Positions 59,931 to 64,000 of a DNA stretch of 64,000 nt are shown here, piece after piece. Both the position numbers and the translations under genes were made by a program. Within the stretch, counting starts at the first letter, position 1, and the number at the start of each line of letters is the position of its first letter. The notes beneath the pieces are model-generated. The model was given only the letters and a program-made list of their open reading frames with translations. It made no database searches and was not told the DNA's origin. Source of the stretch: Gammaproteobacteria bacterium (GTDB lineage Bacteria; Pseudomonadota; Gammaproteobacteria; UBA12402). The stretch spans positions 276 to 64,275 of the forward strand of contig JAHJDF010000012.1 in assembly GCA_018812595.1 (NCBI GenBank), read 5' to 3'.

Positions 59931-60039
59931 CTAAACAGCTTATTTGAGAGCGCGCGAATGTATCACATTTCAAATGTTCGCTAACGTTTTTGTGGCGAGC
60001 ACAAACATCATCCATGCACACTGCCATCATCCTCAAAGC

Positions 60040-60300
60040 ACCCTGCCATCATTCCCACAACCCCCCATCGTCATCCCTAGCTGCAGCTAAGGATCCAGAA
60101 TTGATATCTTTCCTGGATTCCCGCCTACGCGGGAATGACGGCTTTAAAAGCCATAACAAAGATCACTTGGAAAGTGGATTCCCGCCTACGCGGGAATGAC
60201 GGACTACGCGGGAATGACGGACTATGCGGGAATGACGGACTATGCGGGAATGACGGAAGAAACATAGGACCCAGATCTCTTACCCGTCATCCCCGCCTTA
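60040..60300. repeat. REP cluster including about four tandem copies of an 18-bp unit (cgcgggaatgacggacta)
   Basis: cgtcatccctagctgcagctaaggatccag ... ctggattcccgcctacgcgggaatgacgg (two copies) then gactacgcgggaatgacgg iterated. ORFs 59990..60199 and 60135..60323 are repeat translations. Confidence 0.85.
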
Positions 60301-60393
60301 CACTTAACCCGCCTTACACTTAATAAGAGCTATAACAAACCAAGACGATTTCTACATGAGCGCTTTTCTTACCTTTTAATGGGTAATTTTTTG

Positions 60394-60426
60394 TTTGACA
60401 CATACCCACATATGAGTAATTTATCA
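60394..60426 (+). promoter_or_regulatory. Candidate sigma70-type promoter for the small ORF at 60455
   Basis: TTGACA at about 60394 followed 16-17 nt later by TAATTT. An AAAGGAG RBS lies 6 nt before the ATG. Confidence 0.25.
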
Positions 60427-60454
60427 CCGCTTTTACCCAAAAAAGGAGAAAAAC

Positions 60455-60658
60455 ATGAAAAAGCAAAAATATGAAACGGCGATCGTCATCCCTGGCGCCG
60501 CCAACATCACACAAGGGCCTGGATGTAGTAATGCTCGGGAAGATTATCAATCCAACTGCACGCACTACCAAGTAGGGCTATGCAGAGAACCTGATAAGGA
60601 AAAAGAGCCTGAAACACCTGAGGAATTAGATATCCCTAGAAGAAGGCTTGGCTTCTAA
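60455..60658 (+). CDS. Candidate lasso-peptide precursor (67 aa): leader MKKQKYETAIVIPGAANITQ, core GPGCSNAREDY...
   Basis: Strong RBS. Thr sits at the penultimate leader position before Gly1, and there is Glu at core position 9 (Asp at 10), matching the T(-2)/G1/acidic-residue(7-9) rule for lasso macrolactam formation. Lies 0.77 kb upstream of the B gene. The long 47-aa core is atypical. Confidence 0.4.
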   Translation: MKKQKYETAIVIPGAANITQGPGCSNAREDYQSNCTHYQVGLCREPDKEKEPETPEELDIPRRRLGF

Positions 60659-61149: not shown

Positions 61150-61179
61150 AGGTGGCAACCAACAATTATGTGCTCAAAT

Positions 61180-61275
61180 CGTCATTCCTAGCTGCGATGA
61201 GAATCCAAGCTTCCGTCATTCCTAGCGGAAGCGGAAATCCAGAAAATATATCTCCTAGATTCCCTCTACAGCTAG
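61180..61275. repeat. Degenerate REP/MITE elements
   Basis: gtcattcctagctgcgatgagaatccaagcttccgtcattcctagcggaagcggaaatccagaaaatatatctcctagattccc. Track ORF 61152..61370 is a repeat translation. Confidence 0.7.
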
Positions 61276-61427
61276 GAAATAACGAAAGCTTGGAGTTTAG
61301 TTTTCACGGGCATGATGAGGGATTTTTGCAAATTGGCATCGAAAAAGACGCGATGTCACTCACGTTCTAGTCATTAGCAGAATGATTCGCGCAAGACGGA
61401 ACAATAATTTGTACGGATTGTTTTGTT

Positions 61428-62183
61428 ATGTTTTTCGAAATTCCTGATCACATCTATCTCACTGATTTCAATGATGAGATCATCGTTTTAGACCTTCTGA
61501 AAGATCGATATCTAATCCTTCCGAAAGATCTATCTGATGTATTAGCGCTCGCTTTAAAAATGCCGTTTAGAAAAATCAATCACCAATATTTCTTGATGCC
61601 TCACACGAAACATTTCATAGCTGCAGACGACTTGGATGCCACACTGCACTCTCTACAAGACCAAAACATCTTGCTTGGACTCGACGCATTCAGCCCTTCA
61701 AACAAAATAATTGAACACAAGATGTTATTAACCGGCGGCCCCACGCTGGACTGGAGAATAGATGTAGAAAAACTAAAAACTCCGGTTTCTCTGAAACTAT
61801 TTTTCAAAGCCTATTTCTGCCTCATACAGGTCTGTTGGACTCTAAAAAGAAAGGGGTTCTATGCGCTCATCCAAAAAATTAAAACCGCCGAAAAAAGAAA
61901 ATCGAATCACAATCGAACGCCAAATTTCGAACCGCTCATCAAGGCAATGCATAAAGCCTGTTATTTCTACCCTGCACACACTGCCTGTTTGGAATGGGCT
62001 TCCGCTTTAACGTTGCTAGCACTAAAACAAAACATTCCGTGTCGTCTACAAATAGGCGTTCAAAACCTTCCGTTTGCTGCTCATGCGTGGGTGGAATACG
62101 AAGGAAAAATAATTGCCGACCAACCAAATCTATCCGAACAGCTCTCCGTTATTTTGTCCGAGCCACTGGAGGATATGAAATGA
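61428..62183 (+). CDS. Lasso peptide biosynthesis B protein (fused B1 PqqD-like RRE plus B2 transglutaminase-like leader peptidase, McjB-like)
   Basis: N-terminal PqqD-like region (EIPDHIYLTDFNDEIIVLDLLKDRYLIL). C-terminal Cys/His/Asp triad context YPAHTACLEWA ... AAHAWVEYEGKIIAD typical of lasso B2 proteases. Confidence 0.8.
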   Translation: MFFEIPDHIYLTDFNDEIIVLDLLKDRYLILPKDLSDVLALALKMPFRKINHQYFLMPHTKHFIAADDLDATLHSLQDQNILLGLDAFSPSNKIIEHKMLLTGGPTLDWRIDVEKLKTPVSLKLFFKAYFCLIQVCWTLKRKGFYALIQKIKTAEKRKSNHNRTPNFEPLIKAMHKACYFYPAHTACLEWASALTLLALKQNIPCRLQIGVQNLPFAAHAWVEYEGKIIADQPNLSEQLSVILSEPLEDMK

Positions 62184-64000
62184 TCATCGCAGGCATCTAT
62201 GGAAAAACAGCAGAGCAAAATGATCTTTATCAAAAGCTATGTGCTGCCACAAAACACCGTATCAAAACAGATCTCACATATTTTGAATGTGCACACTGCA
62301 AAATCATTGTAGGCAAAACGTCTGCTGCCATCGATCAAGGAAAAATCATCAAAACAAACAACTGTTTGCTCATCGGTAAAGTCTTTAAAAACACAACACA
62401 TGAAAAAATAACGCCGCAAGAAATGAATTCGATTGCATCACGATCCAATGAAACATTTACCCAAAGATACTGGGGCAACTATTTATTAATAAAAATCGAT
62501 CCATCGGCCCCATCCTGCATCATTTTAAGGGATCCGATCGGCCAACTGCCTTTTTTTTACACCACCCTGTCAAACGACAATGTGTTGTTTTCATCTGAAA
62601 TCAGCCTTTTGTATGAAGTCACAAAGGAACGCCCCAGCTTTAATTGGAGTTATTTCTCTTCTTTTTTGACGAACGCGTTTATAACTTCGAAAGAAACAGC
62701 CTTTCAAAATATTCAGGAACTGAACCACGGCTGCCAATTGCATCTGTCTTTTGACGGCATCAAAGAAACGCCTGTTTGGAACCCTACAAACTTCCCTGCA
62801 AACGACGCGAGAGTCTGTTGCAATTCACTCATTTCGTCATCCCCGCGAAAGCGGGGATCCAGAAAAATCAATAAACTATATTTCGCTAATTGCTCAAAAA
62901 ATTTGGATTGCAACAACCCTGCGACGCACTTAGACACTCAGATCGTAGAAACACTCACTGCGGTCATGCAAAGTTGGTTACAAGATTCAAAAGATCTATT
63001 TCTCGATTTTTCAGGAGGATTAGATTCATCCGCACTTCTTTTTGTTTTACACAGTATCCTCGCATCAAAACAAACGCTGCATCCAGTAAACATCTTCCAT
63101 CCAGAAGTGAAATCTTCCGACGAACGAATCCATGCGCAGCGAATCACTCAAAAGATCGGAGTACCACTGATCGAATTCGACAGTTCAAAGAGCCTACCTC
63201 TCGATCCGTGCACACATCATTTTGAATACAAACCGAATTTTCCAACATCAGGATTAACGCATCTCAAAAAAGAACACGATTACTACGAACTCTCTAAACA
63301 TCACAGCAATGTGGCTTTTATTAGCGGCCATGGAGGCGACCATATTTTTTTAGCGCAACCCATTCCGGAATTAATTTGTGATTGTTTCCTTCAAAAAGGC
63401 CTCAACCCTGCAAAAAGAAAATTTCTAGAAATTGCAGCACATTATCGCTGTTCTTCATTCACATTATTTCAAATCGTATTCAAAAACATGCTCGCCCATC
63501 TGTTTAGACACTCTTATGCACAGAATCGATGTATCCGCTTCAATCAAAAAACCCCATGGTTTACAGAAAAATTGCGCAGCCTTTCTGAACAGATAACGAA
63601 ACACCCCTCGCTTGAAACGTTAAAACACCAGATGCCAGGGCAATTTCGAAAAATAGAAACAATCTACGAAGGGTTAGCCTCGATTAAAGGACCGATGAGG
63701 GACCCCCAAAATCCTGTCTTTTACCCTCTCTTTTCTCAGCCTATGTTGGAACTCGCGTTAGGTATTCCTTCTTATCGGTTGTTTGAAAATAACTTCGATC
63801 GTTATCCCTTTCGAAAAGCCGTTAGCGACGCTTTTCAAACGCAATCGGTTTTTCGACACGACAAAGGAGAAACATCTGGCGTCATGCAACGAGGACTCAT
63901 TAAAAATCAAAAATATATTTTAGAACTTTGCTTGGACGGAAGGATCGTCAAAGAAGGATTAGCCAACAAAGAACGTTTGTATCGAGATTTGAAGCTATTT
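62180..64000 (+). CDS. Lasso peptide cyclase C (asparagine synthetase B-like lactam synthetase), partial, continuing past the window end
   Basis: Continuous reading frame from the ATG overlapping the B stop (ATGAAATGA) to position 64000 with no stop; it is absent from the ORF track only because it lacks an in-window stop. PP-loop motif DFSGGLDSSALLFVL. Contains an in-frame REP at about 62815..62910. Confidence 0.8.
   Translation, partial: MIIAGIYGKTAEQNDLYQKLCAATKHRIKTDLTYFECAHCKIIVGKTSAAIDQGKIIKTNNCLLIGKVFKNTTHEKITPQEMNSIASRSNETFTQRYWGNYLLIKIDPSAPSCIILRDPIGQLPFFYTTLSNDNVLFSSEISLLYEVTKERPSFNWSYFSSFLTNAFITSKETAFQNIQELNHGCQLHLSFDGIKETPVWNPTNFPANDARVCCNSLISSSPRKRGSRKINKLYFANCSKNLDCNNPATHLDTQIVETLTAVMQSWLQDSKDLFLDFSGGLDSSALLFVLHSILASKQTLHPVNIFHPEVKSSDERIHAQRITQKIGVPLIEFDSSKSLPLDPCTHHFEYKPNFPTSGLTHLKKEHDYYELSKHHSNVAFISGHGGDHIFLAQPIPELICDCFLQKGLNPAKRKFLEIAAHYRCSSFTLFQIVFKNMLAHLFRHSYAQNRCIRFNQKTPWFTEKLRSLSEQITKHPSLETLKHQMPGQFRKIETIYEGLASIKGPMRDPQNPVFYPLFSQPMLELALGIPSYRLFENNFDRYPFRKAVSDAFQTQSVFRHDKGETSGVMQRGLIKNQKYILELCLDGRIVKEGLANKERLYRDLKLF
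62815..62910. repeat. REP/MITE element inserted in-frame inside the lasso C gene
   Basis: cgtcatccccgcgaaagcggggatccagaaaaatcaataaactatatttcgctaattgctcaaaaaatttggattgcaaca encodes SSSPRKRGSRKINKLYFANCSKNLDC, between the N-terminal and synthetase domains. Paralogous to the element at 34745..34835. Confidence 0.8.

What the first reader, a model, noticed from the sequence alone, without database searches (positions are those of the whole stretch)
59931..64000. Lasso-peptide (RiPP) biosynthetic gene cluster adjacent to mraY, apparently splitting the dcw cluster
A fused B1/B2 lasso leader peptidase (PqqD-like RRE plus transglutaminase-like Cys/His/Asp, AHAWVEY motif) is translationally coupled (ATGAAATGA) to an asparagine-synthetase-like cyclase that has a PP-loop (SGGLDSS) and runs off the window end. 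Upstream lie a candidate precursor and an unusual small membrane protein. The cluster begins right where murF would normally follow mraY and is separated from mraY by a REP-dense region, suggesting insertion into the division/cell-wall cluster. The cyclase carries an in-frame REP insertion between its two domains.
Basis: partly seen in the sequence, partly recalled or inferred. Interest (0 to 1): 0.8.

Follow-up and report, generated by a model that had tools for sequence, protein, structure and literature searches.

The report
Lasso-peptide gene island splitting the dcw cluster
A real, complete-looking lasso-peptide (knotted antimicrobial-type peptide) gene cluster sits as a 6-kb island wedged between the cell-wall genes murE and mraY of an uncultured, Dot/Icm-carrying gammaproteobacterium; the core machinery is ordinary, but its unusually long cysteine-bearing precursor, its odd accessory genes and its repeat-riddled state make it a worthwhile, not revolutionary, target.

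Summary
B and C overlap by ATGA. C carries an in-frame 102-nt MITE-like element.

A 99.7 %-identical contig from another assembly (L094) crosses the repeat array that ends the other contigs examined. It gives the full order: ftsI-murE | <- rSAM/SPASM <- REP array <- C <- B <- IcmD' <- A | mraY-murD-ftsW-murG-murC-murB-ftsQ-ftsA. So a 6.08-kb, oppositely oriented island does split the dcw cluster.

One correction. In the three nearest relatives (MraY 73-84 % identical) murE abuts mraY directly, without murF. The island therefore entered a murE|mraY junction and did not displace murF.

Relatives of the B/C pair (about 40 % identity, all metagenomic) carry A+B+C, mostly with an ABC exporter, and never an rSAM or IcmD gene. 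This island has no exporter within 64 kb. The predicted core is 47 aa with three Cys and a G1-E9 ring, and it has no detectable homologue among 1.84 billion representative proteins.

NCBI already labels B as lasso B2, so this is a new, atypical member of a known kind. A lasso + radical-SAM hybrid is possible but unproven. Interest is moderate.

The parts
58839..59930 (-). mraY, the first dcw gene on the near side of the island (followed by murD, ftsW, murG, murC, murB, ftsQ, ftsA down to about 50.7 kb)
   Evidence: TIGR00445 mraY 441.7 bits against a cut-off of 192. Gene order.
59931..60454 (.). Divergent spacer between mraY and the precursor gene. It holds two full REP palindromes, four tandem 18-nt half-REP units, 16- and 22-nt duplications, and a Shine-Dalgarno AAGGAG 7 nt before the precursor ATG.
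   Evidence: One 18-nt unit fewer is present in L094.
60455..60658 (+). Lasso precursor A (67 aa): leader MKKQKYETAIVIPGAANITQ (20 aa), core GPGCSNAREDYQSNCTHYQVGLCREPDKEKEPETPEELDIPRRRLGF (47 aa, 3 Cys); predicted G1-E9 macrolactam
   Evidence: Aligns with the small ORFs next to B/C in L006, L008 and L009; T19, E29 and Y31 are invariant. Called as a gene in five assemblies. No homologue in 1.84e9 representative proteins.
60766..61149 (+). IcmD/DotP paralogue (127 aa; signal-like N-terminus, two hydrophobic segments)
   Evidence: 105 homologues, named IcmD by NCBI and JGI. 68 % identical to P0026, which sits in the icmC-icmD-icmJ position of the Dot/Icm cluster of the same MAG, GCA_018829805.1.
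61152..61427 (.). Spacer with degenerate REP copies (GTCATTCCTAGC...GAATCCA)
   Evidence: families D2-D4, inverted pairs I5-I6.
61428..62183 (+). Lasso leader peptidase B, fused type: RRE (about residues 1-90) plus transglutaminase-like protease (about 125-243; C187, H219, D231)
   Evidence: Full-length (residues 3-243) homology to enterobacterial plasmid lasso B2 proteins at 25 % identity.
62180..64000 (+). Lasso cyclase C (632 aa; the last 26 codons and the stop lie beyond the window). N-terminal GATase-like domain without Cys2; C-terminal adenylating domain with SGGLDSS.
   Evidence: The full ORF is read in L001 10753-12651.
62816..62917 (.). 102-nt (34-codon) MITE-like element with terminal inverted repeats (TGTTGCAAT...ATTGCAACA) and an internal REP hairpin. 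It is inserted in frame in the interdomain linker of C and encodes ...VCCNSLISSSPRKRGSRKINKLYFANCSKNLDCN...
   Evidence: C is 632 aa against 598-599 aa in homologues.

Best explanation
This is a horizontally acquired lasso-peptide biosynthetic island of about 6.1 kb. It is inserted, in the opposite orientation, into the murE|mraY junction of the dcw cluster of an uncultured gammaproteobacterium that also carries a Dot/Icm type IVB secretion system.

Proposed mechanism:
- The 67-aa precursor A is bound through its 20-aa leader by the N-terminal RRE of B.
- The Cys187/His219/Asp231 protease domain of B cuts after Gln20, with Thr at -2.
- C adenylates the Glu9 side chain through its PP-loop domain and joins it to the Gly1 amine. 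This closes a 9-residue macrolactam around the tail.
- The product is a threaded peptide of up to 47 residues, with a calculated monoisotopic mass of 5400.51 Da for the dehydrated full core.

What is shown: gene identities, domain architecture, conserved catalytic residues, precursor homology, and the insertion site.

What is inferred: the cleavage site, the ring residue, threading, and whether the cluster is active at all.

The IcmD paralogue is a lineage-specific duplicate of the genome's own icmD. The rSAM/SPASM gene arrived in the same intergenic site. A role in maturation or export is unproven for either. Repeats (REP palindromes and a MITE-like derivative) have since invaded the island, including an in-frame insertion in a linker of C.
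For: - B passes the curated lasso B2 model and keeps the triad in 22 homologues. Its N-terminal domain matches lasso B1 structures first.
- C is Asn-synthase-like with a PP-loop and no Cys2.
- The precursor shares leader and core landmarks with precursors of related clusters.
- Six related loci or contigs show the same B-C core: five with a small ORF alongside (the L102 ORF lacks Thr at -2), and four of the six with a complete ABC exporter.
- L094, 99.74 % identical, shows ftsI-murE on the far side.
- Relatives L100, L093 and L099 have murE abutting mraY with no more than 92 nt between them and no island.
- All island ORFs are intact in several independent assemblies.
Against: - No exporter and no isopeptidase lie in the island or in the 64-kb window, unlike its relatives.
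- The cyclase carries a 34-codon foreign element, and a 0.5-kb REP array follows it. The cluster could therefore be decaying.
- A 47-aa core exceeds any characterised lasso peptide; the maximum is 33 aa according to the review PMC13352647.
- No compositional anomaly marks the island: GC is 0.41-0.46 against 0.44 in the flanks.
- No close donor was found; the nearest B and C are only about 40-43 % identical.
- There is no expression or product data.
Confidence: 0.85

Rival explanations
1. Hybrid RiPP. The downstream radical-SAM/SPASM enzyme, with its own N-terminal PqqD-like RRE, is part of the pathway. It installs cross-links, for example Cys-derived thioethers of the sactipeptide or ranthipeptide type, in the long three-Cys tail of the lasso precursor. 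It would act before or after lasso formation.
For: - The rSAM lies in the same inserted block, on the same strand, downstream of C. It is absent from the murE|mraY junction of three relatives.
- It has CxxxCxxC and a SPASM domain.
- Its best solved homologues are the RiPP maturases SkfB (2e-22), SuiB and PqqE.
- Its N-terminal ~100 residues weakly match PqqD models, the best being a lasso-type PqqD chaperone model (E 0.0034).
- A homologue in Thiodictyon is annotated as a PqqD-family chaperone and sits in a YcaO/TfuA cluster.
- No other precursor-like ORF lies near it.
- The core has 3 Cys and an unusually long tail, whereas relatives without an rSAM have Cys-free cores: 18 aa in L006 and L008, about 41 aa in L009.
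Against: - The evidence is adjacency only. A 0.5-kb REP array separates the rSAM from C.
- None of six related lasso loci carries an rSAM.
- Its closest plasmid homologues are solitary Tn3- or resolvase-linked genes. It may therefore be an independent mobile cassette whose own precursor was lost.
- It reaches no curated family cut-off.
- The RRE match is sub-threshold, and hhalign against the B RRE is insignificant.
- No rSAM-tailored lasso peptide appears in the 2026 review PMC13352647.
Confidence: 0.25
2. Decaying remnant. The island is a non-functional relic being eroded by REP/MITE proliferation, and no lasso peptide is made.
For: - A MITE-like element lies inside C.
- REP arrays flank and fill the spacers.
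- No exporter or immunity gene is present.
- The IcmD duplicate and the rSAM look like unrelated insertions.
- The dcw cluster of this genome is also interrupted between ftsA and ftsZ.
Against: - All four ORFs are full length in the five assemblies that cover the region; contigs that end inside C naturally show it cut.
- The insertion is a multiple of three, has no stop codon, and lies in an interdomain linker.
- An in-frame REP also sits inside a glycosyltransferase with an otherwise intact family-2 glycosyltransferase domain match. In-frame repeats are therefore tolerated in this genome, as with Rickettsia RPEs (PMC10969869).
- The catalytic residues and the PP-loop are intact.
Confidence: 0.2
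3. Primary-metabolism reading. C is a genuine asparagine synthetase and B a generic transglutaminase-like protein, so this is not a RiPP cluster.
For: Pfam Asn_synthase and GATase_7 hits.
Against: - No Cys2 is present.
- The asn_synth_AEB score is 53 bits against a cut-off of 267, and AsnB scores 26 against 499.
- B passes the lasso B2 model.
- A precursor with lasso landmarks is conserved beside B/C in relatives.
Confidence: 0.01

Closest known systems
Proteobacterial lasso clusters with a fused B protein (microcin J25 mcjABCD type and related enterobacterial plasmid clusters)
   Same: The precursor has Thr at -2 and Gly1. There is a single B protein combining an RRE with a Cys/His/Asp protease; it is homologous over residues 3-243 to plasmid-borne 'lasso peptide biosynthesis B2' proteins. 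C is Asn-synthetase-like. B and C are translationally coupled.
   Different: There is no McjD-type ABC exporter/immunity gene. The ring is predicted as 9 residues via Glu9. The core is 47 aa with 3 Cys. The island is chromosomal, inside the dcw cluster. An IcmD paralogue and an rSAM/SPASM gene lie within it.
The metagenomic B/C clade found here (P0002-P0024; loci L006-L009, L102)
   Same: About 40-43 % identical B and C. The precursor leader motif ..GAAxxTx|G and the core landmarks G1, E9 and Y11 are shared.
   Different: These clusters mostly carry an ABC exporter and none has an rSAM or IcmD gene. Their cores are Cys-free (18 aa in L006 and L008, about 41 aa in L009), their cyclases are 598-599 aa without the insertion, and they are not located in the dcw cluster.
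Class III/IV disulfide lasso peptides and long-tailed pandonodin
   Same: Cys occurs in the ring (C4) and in the tail (C15, C23), so a ring-tail or tail-tail bridge is conceivable. The C-terminal tail is long.
   Different: Pandonodin, at 33 aa with an 18-aa tail, has the longest recorded tail (PMC13352647). Here the core is 47 aa with an odd number of Cys. Nothing about the product has been measured.
RRE-fused rSAM/SPASM RiPP maturases (SkfB, AlbA, SuiB, PqqE)
   Same: CxxxCxxC, a SPASM domain and an N-terminal extension of about 100 aa. SkfB is the best solved homologue.
   Different: It is below every curated family cut-off. It has no adjacent dedicated precursor. It lies next to a lasso cluster, a combination not listed among known lasso modifications.
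Rickettsia palindromic elements and other intragenic MITEs (e.g. QMITE1 of Coxiella burnetii)
   Same: A short element bounded by terminal inverted repeats is inserted in frame in a protein-coding gene, with other copies in the genome (PMC10969869).
   Different: It belongs to a different sequence family, built around a GGATTCCCGC...GCGGGAATGAC REP core. The host is a Dot/Icm gammaproteobacterium.

Membership tests
Lasso peptide biosynthetic gene cluster | Leader peptidase B2: transglutaminase-like fold with a Cys/His/Asp triad | tested here: met
   NCBIfam NF033537 80 bits (cut-off 33) and Pfam PF13471 70.5 bits. C187 and H219 are invariant and D231 is conserved in at least 90 % of 22 homologues.
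Lasso peptide biosynthetic gene cluster | RiPP recognition element (B1/PqqD-like), free-standing or fused | tested here: met
   There is no sequence-model hit. The model (pLDDT 85) matches TbiB1 (5v1v) and 6jx3_B first, with prob 1.0 and TM 0.60-0.64 over 85-88 residues.
Lasso peptide biosynthetic gene cluster | ATP-dependent lactam synthetase C, homologous to Asn synthetase B but without the glutaminase Cys | tested here: met
   PF00733 at 49-52 bits. The SGGLDSS PP-loop is present. The N-terminus is MIIAG. NF033535 and NF033561 give partial hits.
Lasso peptide biosynthetic gene cluster | Precursor with Thr at -2, a small residue at core position 1 and Asp/Glu at position 7-9 | tested here: met
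   The junction is ...NITQ|GPGCSNARE. T19, G21 and E29 align with the precursors of related loci.
Lasso peptide biosynthetic gene cluster | Threaded [1]rotaxane product | not testable with these tools
   This needs MS, NMR and carboxypeptidase or heat assays.
mcjABCD-type (exporter-linked) lasso cluster | Dedicated ABC exporter/immunity protein D | tested here: not met
   tblastn with the exporters of L006 and L009 finds only an unrelated NBD at 35.9 kb. None is present in L094.
Glutamine-hydrolysing asparagine synthetase (AsnB) | N-terminal Cys2 nucleophile and an equivalog-level score | tested here: not met
   The protein starts MIIAG. TIGR01536 scores 53 bits against 267, and NF006949 26 against 499.
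IcmD/DotP component of the Dot/Icm T4BSS | Sequence homology to IcmD | tested here: met
   105 homologues, named IcmD by NCBI and JGI. 68 % identical to P0026.
IcmD/DotP component of the Dot/Icm T4BSS | Location in the icmC-icmD-icmJ-icmB operon | tested here: not met
   The canonical copy lies on another contig of the same MAG (L090). The window copy is an isolated duplicate between A and B.
Sactipeptide/ranthipeptide-type rSAM/SPASM maturase (gene beyond the window, L094 1937-3325) | CxxxCxxC radical-SAM core plus a SPASM domain | tested here: met
   PF04055 58 bits and PF13186 51.5 bits. The motif reads CPLKCIHC.
Sactipeptide/ranthipeptide-type rSAM/SPASM maturase (gene beyond the window, L094 1937-3325) | N-terminal RRE and membership of a curated maturase family | tested here: inconclusive
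   PqqD hits are sub-threshold (E 0.11 and 0.0034). AlbA, SkfB and StsB score 79-104 bits, far below cut-offs of 300-850.
Canonical dcw order (ftsI-murE-murF-mraY) | murF between murE and mraY | tested here: not met
   murF is absent from the window and from L094. It is also absent at this site in relatives L093, L099 and L100. It is present in the more distant L010, L012 and L016.
Intragenic MITE/RPE-like element | Terminal inverted repeats, other genomic copies, length a multiple of 3, no stop codon | tested here: met
   The element is 102 nt with a 12-bp terminal stem. A copy lies at 24338-24425. Homologous cyclases lack it.

The most novel reading that the evidence does not exclude
The island encodes a new hybrid RiPP: a very long lasso peptide (up to 47 aa) whose three-Cys tail is cross-linked by the co-inserted RRE-bearing radical-SAM/SPASM enzyme. 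This would be the first radical-SAM-tailored lasso peptide.

A more remote variant is that the exporter-less cluster uses the duplicated IcmD, and thus the Dot/Icm machinery, for delivery. The acidic tail EPDKEKEPETPEE..RRRLGF loosely recalls, from my memory and untested here, the Glu-rich C-terminal signals of Dot/Icm substrates. That would make it a host-directed peptide from an intracellular-type bacterium.
Probability: 0.2. Interest if true: 0.8.

Novelty: new member of a known kind. Interest (0 to 1): 0.5.

Why it matters
The dcw cluster is one of the most conserved gene orders in bacteria. Here a secondary-metabolite island has been inserted, backwards, into a junction where murE and mraY overlap or lie no more than 92 nt apart in relatives. 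This uncouples mraY-ftsA from the upstream operon.

For natural-product work, the cluster offers three things:
- a precursor with no detectable homologue and a core far longer than any characterised lasso peptide;
- a candidate first pairing of lasso and radical-SAM chemistry;
- a natural test of whether a lasso cyclase tolerates a 34-residue linker insertion.

It also shows REP/MITE elements entering coding sequences in frame in a Dot/Icm-bearing gammaproteobacterium, parallel to Rickettsia RPEs.

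Tried and rejected
- Genome-contig scan with the cyclase: no relative found.
- Metagenome scan for the downstream REP-array unit, to find the contig on the other side: no match.
- Metagenome scan with the rSAM protein: no relative.
- Rfam over the whole window: no RNA family.
- PDB sequence search with B: nothing. The fold search was needed instead.
- Exhaustive HMMER search with the precursor: only itself.
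- PADLOC: only generic radical-SAM similarity to viperins for the rSAM, and nothing for B, C or IcmD'. A defence-system reading was dropped.
- Promoter/terminator scan of the spacers: counts at or below shuffled expectation, so uninformative.
- hhalign of the B-family RRE against the rSAM N-terminus: collinear but insignificant.
- SNP comparison of the window with L094: 7 substitutions in the island, too few for any selection test.
- The idea that murF was displaced by the island was rejected after relatives showed murE-mraY adjacency.
- The 72-aa ORF at 61152-61370 was rejected as a precursor. It is REP-encoded and has no counterpart in relatives.

Full report
**Anatomy in the window**

On the minus strand, 53.6-59.9 kb carries murC, murG, ftsW, murD and mraY. 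Further down lie murB, ftsQ and ftsA.

From 59931 the plus strand carries, in order:
- a 524-nt repeat-rich spacer;
- a 67-aa ORF (60455-60658) with a strong Shine-Dalgarno sequence;
- a 127-aa membrane protein (60766-61149);
- a 276-nt spacer with degenerate repeats;
- a 251-aa ORF (61428-62183);
- an ORF starting at 62180 that overlaps it by ATGA and runs off the window.

**The core enzymes**

The 251-aa protein passes the curated NCBIfam model for lasso B2 (80 bits, cut-off 33) and Pfam Transglut_core3. In an alignment of 22 homologues, C187 and H219 (AHAW) are invariant and D231 is nearly so.

An AlphaFold model built on that alignment has pLDDT 85.4. Its N-terminal beta-beta-beta-alpha domain finds lasso B1/RRE structures as best PDB fold matches: TbiB1 5v1v (prob 1.0, TM 0.64 on the target) and 6jx3_B. 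The C-terminal half finds transglutaminase-like cysteine proteases. By tblastn, residues 3-243 align to enterobacterial plasmid "lasso peptide biosynthesis B2" genes that sit beside an ABC transporter.

The downstream ORF is complete in other assemblies at 632 aa (L001 10753-12651). It matches Asn_synthase and has the PP-loop SGGLDSS. It begins MIIAG and so lacks the Cys2 glutaminase nucleophile. It scores far below the asparagine synthase equivalogs (53 against 267 bits), while partially matching lasso and macrolactam cyclase models.

**The precursor**

Small ORFs beside B/C in three related loci align with the 67-aa ORF. The shared features are a ..GAAxxTx leader end with Thr at -2, Gly1, Glu9 and Tyr11.

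The relatives' cores contain no Cys. They are 18 aa in L006 and L008 (for example GNYMDHPKEKYYWIYPKP) and about 41 aa in L009. The window's core is GPGCSNAREDYQSNCTHYQVGLCREPDKEKEPETPEELDIPRRRLGF, 47 aa with three Cys and an acidic tail.

An exhaustive HMMER search of 1.84 billion representative proteins finds only the precursor itself. According to a 2026 review, characterised lasso rings have 7-9 residues and the largest peptide cited is pandonodin at 33 aa (achromonodin-1 is 30 aa) (PMC13352647).

**The membrane protein**

It is not an unknown. It has 105 homologues, which NCBI and JGI name IcmD. Its closest relative (68 % identity) lies on another contig of the same MAG (GCA_018829805.1). 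There it occupies the canonical slot, with an IcmC-sized gene before it and IcmJ- and IcmB-sized genes after it (these three carry no Pfam hit and are assigned by size and position). The cluster upstream contains IcmQ, DotM, DotI, DotH and a TrbI-domain (DotG-like) gene, assigned by Pfam. The next-closest homologue is also in a canonical context.

So the organism carries a Dot/Icm type IVB system, and the island holds a lineage-specific duplicate of icmD. None of six related lasso loci or contigs contains such a gene.

**Beyond the window**

The contigs first retrieved end in a repeat array just after C. One contig from another assembly crosses it: L094 (GCA_043810905.1), which is 99.74 % identical to window 50839-64000 over 13.2 kb.

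Oriented with mraY on the plus strand, L094 reads:
- ftsI;
- murE, which matches the NCBIfam MurE equivalog at 605 bits against a cut-off of 586;
- 16 nt later, on the opposite strand, a 462-aa radical-SAM/SPASM gene;
- a 22-nt x 16.6 REP array plus 34-nt units;
- C, B, IcmD' and A;
- the spacer, then mraY.

The island measures about 6.08 kb.

**Is it an insertion, and what about murF?**

murF, murE, ftsI and mraW are absent from the window. Three relatives identified through MraY were examined:

| Locus | MraY identity | Arrangement |
|---|---|---|
| L100 | 84 % | MurE C-terminus (69 % identical) 92 nt upstream of mraY |
| L093 | 77 % | murE then mraY, 10 nt apart |
| L099 | 73 % | mraZ-mraW-ftsL-ftsI-murE-mraY..., with murE overlapping mraY |

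None of them has murF or the island at this position. More distant genomes, with 64-70 % MraY identity, do have murF-mraY.

The island is therefore a lineage-specific insertion into a murE|mraY junction.

GC content does not set the island apart.

**Repeats**

The REP core GGATTCCCGCnnnnGCGGGAATGAC gives 24 pattern matches in the window, at about 15 distinct sites, against 0.1 expected by chance.

The extra 34 residues of C lie in the linker between its two domains. They are encoded by a 102-nt element (62816-62917) with a 12-bp terminal inverted repeat and an internal REP hairpin. About 85 nt of it recur in an intergenic copy at 24338-24425.

A second in-frame REP, encoding VIPAKAGIQ, sits inside a family-2 glycosyltransferase. 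In-frame intragenic MITEs are well known from Rickettsia RPEs, and intragenic MITEs from Coxiella QMITE1 (PMC10969869).

**The radical-SAM gene**

Evidence that it is a RiPP-type maturase:
- It has the CPLKCIHC motif and a SPASM domain.
- Its best solved homologues are SkfB (2e-22), SuiB and PqqE.
- Its N-terminal ~100 residues give sub-threshold, near full-length PqqD matches, the best being a lasso-type PqqD model (E 0.0034).
- A Thiodictyon homologue is annotated as a PqqD-family chaperone and lies in a YcaO/TfuA cluster.
- No separate precursor-like ORF lies near it.

These points, together with co-insertion at the same junction and the Cys-bearing long tail of A, make a lasso + rSAM hybrid conceivable.

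Against the hybrid:
- The link is adjacency only, across a 0.5-kb repeat array.
- No related lasso locus has an rSAM.
- Its best plasmid homologues are solitary, resolvase-adjacent genes on plasmids (a Tn3-family transposase also adjoins the E. coli copy). The E. coli copy possibly has its own small Cys-containing ORF upstream.
- No curated family cut-off is reached.

I put this reading at about 0.2-0.25.

**Export**

No McjD-like exporter exists in the window or in L094. Four of the six related loci or contigs carry a complete one. How, or whether, the peptide leaves the cell is unknown. A role for the IcmD duplicate is speculation.

**Verdict**

This is a genuine lasso-peptide cluster of the fused-B proteobacterial type. 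PGAP already labels it at the gene level. It is newly placed here as a 6-kb island that splits the dcw cluster of a Dot/Icm-bearing, uncultured gammaproteobacterium.

It is atypical in four ways: the length and Cys content of its precursor, its lack of an exporter, its IcmD and rSAM neighbours, and a MITE inside the cyclase.

It is a new member of a known kind, of moderate interest. A realistic but unproven upside exists if the rSAM acts on the lasso precursor.

Noticed in passing
window 45195-45220, within ORF 44477-45379 (-): A REP palindrome lies in frame inside a family-2 glycosyltransferase (Pfam Glycos_transf_2, 113.7 bits) and encodes VIPAKAGIQ. This is a second case of a repeat inside a coding sequence in this window.
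   Followed up: partly
window 48909-50696 (ORFs 49186-50166 and 50163-50651, + strand): ftsA (50697-51947, -) and ftsZ (47706-48908, -) are separated by about 1.8 kb carrying two oppositely oriented, overlapping ORFs. The second has a DUF4143 domain, so this may be one frameshifted ATPase gene. In relative L099, ftsA and ftsZ are adjacent. The dcw cluster of this genome is therefore interrupted twice.
   Followed up: partly
window 34740-34849, and L094 281-390 (ftsI-murE spacer): A 110-nt intergenic element is shared at 94.5 % identity between two unrelated spacers. It is another dispersed repeat family, distinct from the REP core.
   Followed up: no
L093 4578-6471: In a relative (MraY 77 % identical), a bufferin-type MNIO RiPP cassette lies directly upstream of murE, preceded by kdp genes instead of ftsI. 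The cassette is a 63-aa ORF, a BufB maturase (379 bits, cut-off 310) and an HvfC-like protein (67.9 bits, below that model's cut-off of 142). This is another RiPP cluster abutting a broken dcw cluster in this clade.
   Followed up: partly
L090 (GCA_018829805.1 contig JAHJTA010000065.1) 1-14034: The same MAG carries a Dot/Icm type IVB secretion gene cluster. IcmQ, DotM, DotI, DotH and a TrbI-domain (DotG-like) gene are assigned by Pfam; DotL, IcmC, IcmD, IcmJ and IcmB by size and position. This implies a host-associated, Legionellales-like lifestyle.
   Followed up: partly
L102 306-6144: A related metagenomic contig carries two tandem lasso B-C pairs with a 55-aa ORF between them. Its junction (..KIIK|GSGEHRIE..) lacks the usual Thr at -2.
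   Followed up: no
L106 4365-5993 and L105 4659-6086 (E. coli and Photobacterium plasmids): The closest plasmid homologues of the island's rSAM (29 % identity) are solitary 'radical SAM protein' genes next to resolvase genes (a Tn3-family transposase also adjoins the E. coli copy). The E. coli copy has an unannotated 38-aa Cys-containing ORF just upstream. This may be a mobile minimal RiPP cassette.
   Followed up: no
window 60186-60257, compared with L094: The 18-nt half-REP tandem array in the mraY-precursor spacer differs by exactly one unit between two 99.7 %-identical assemblies. The repeat copy number is therefore polymorphic in the population.
   Followed up: partly
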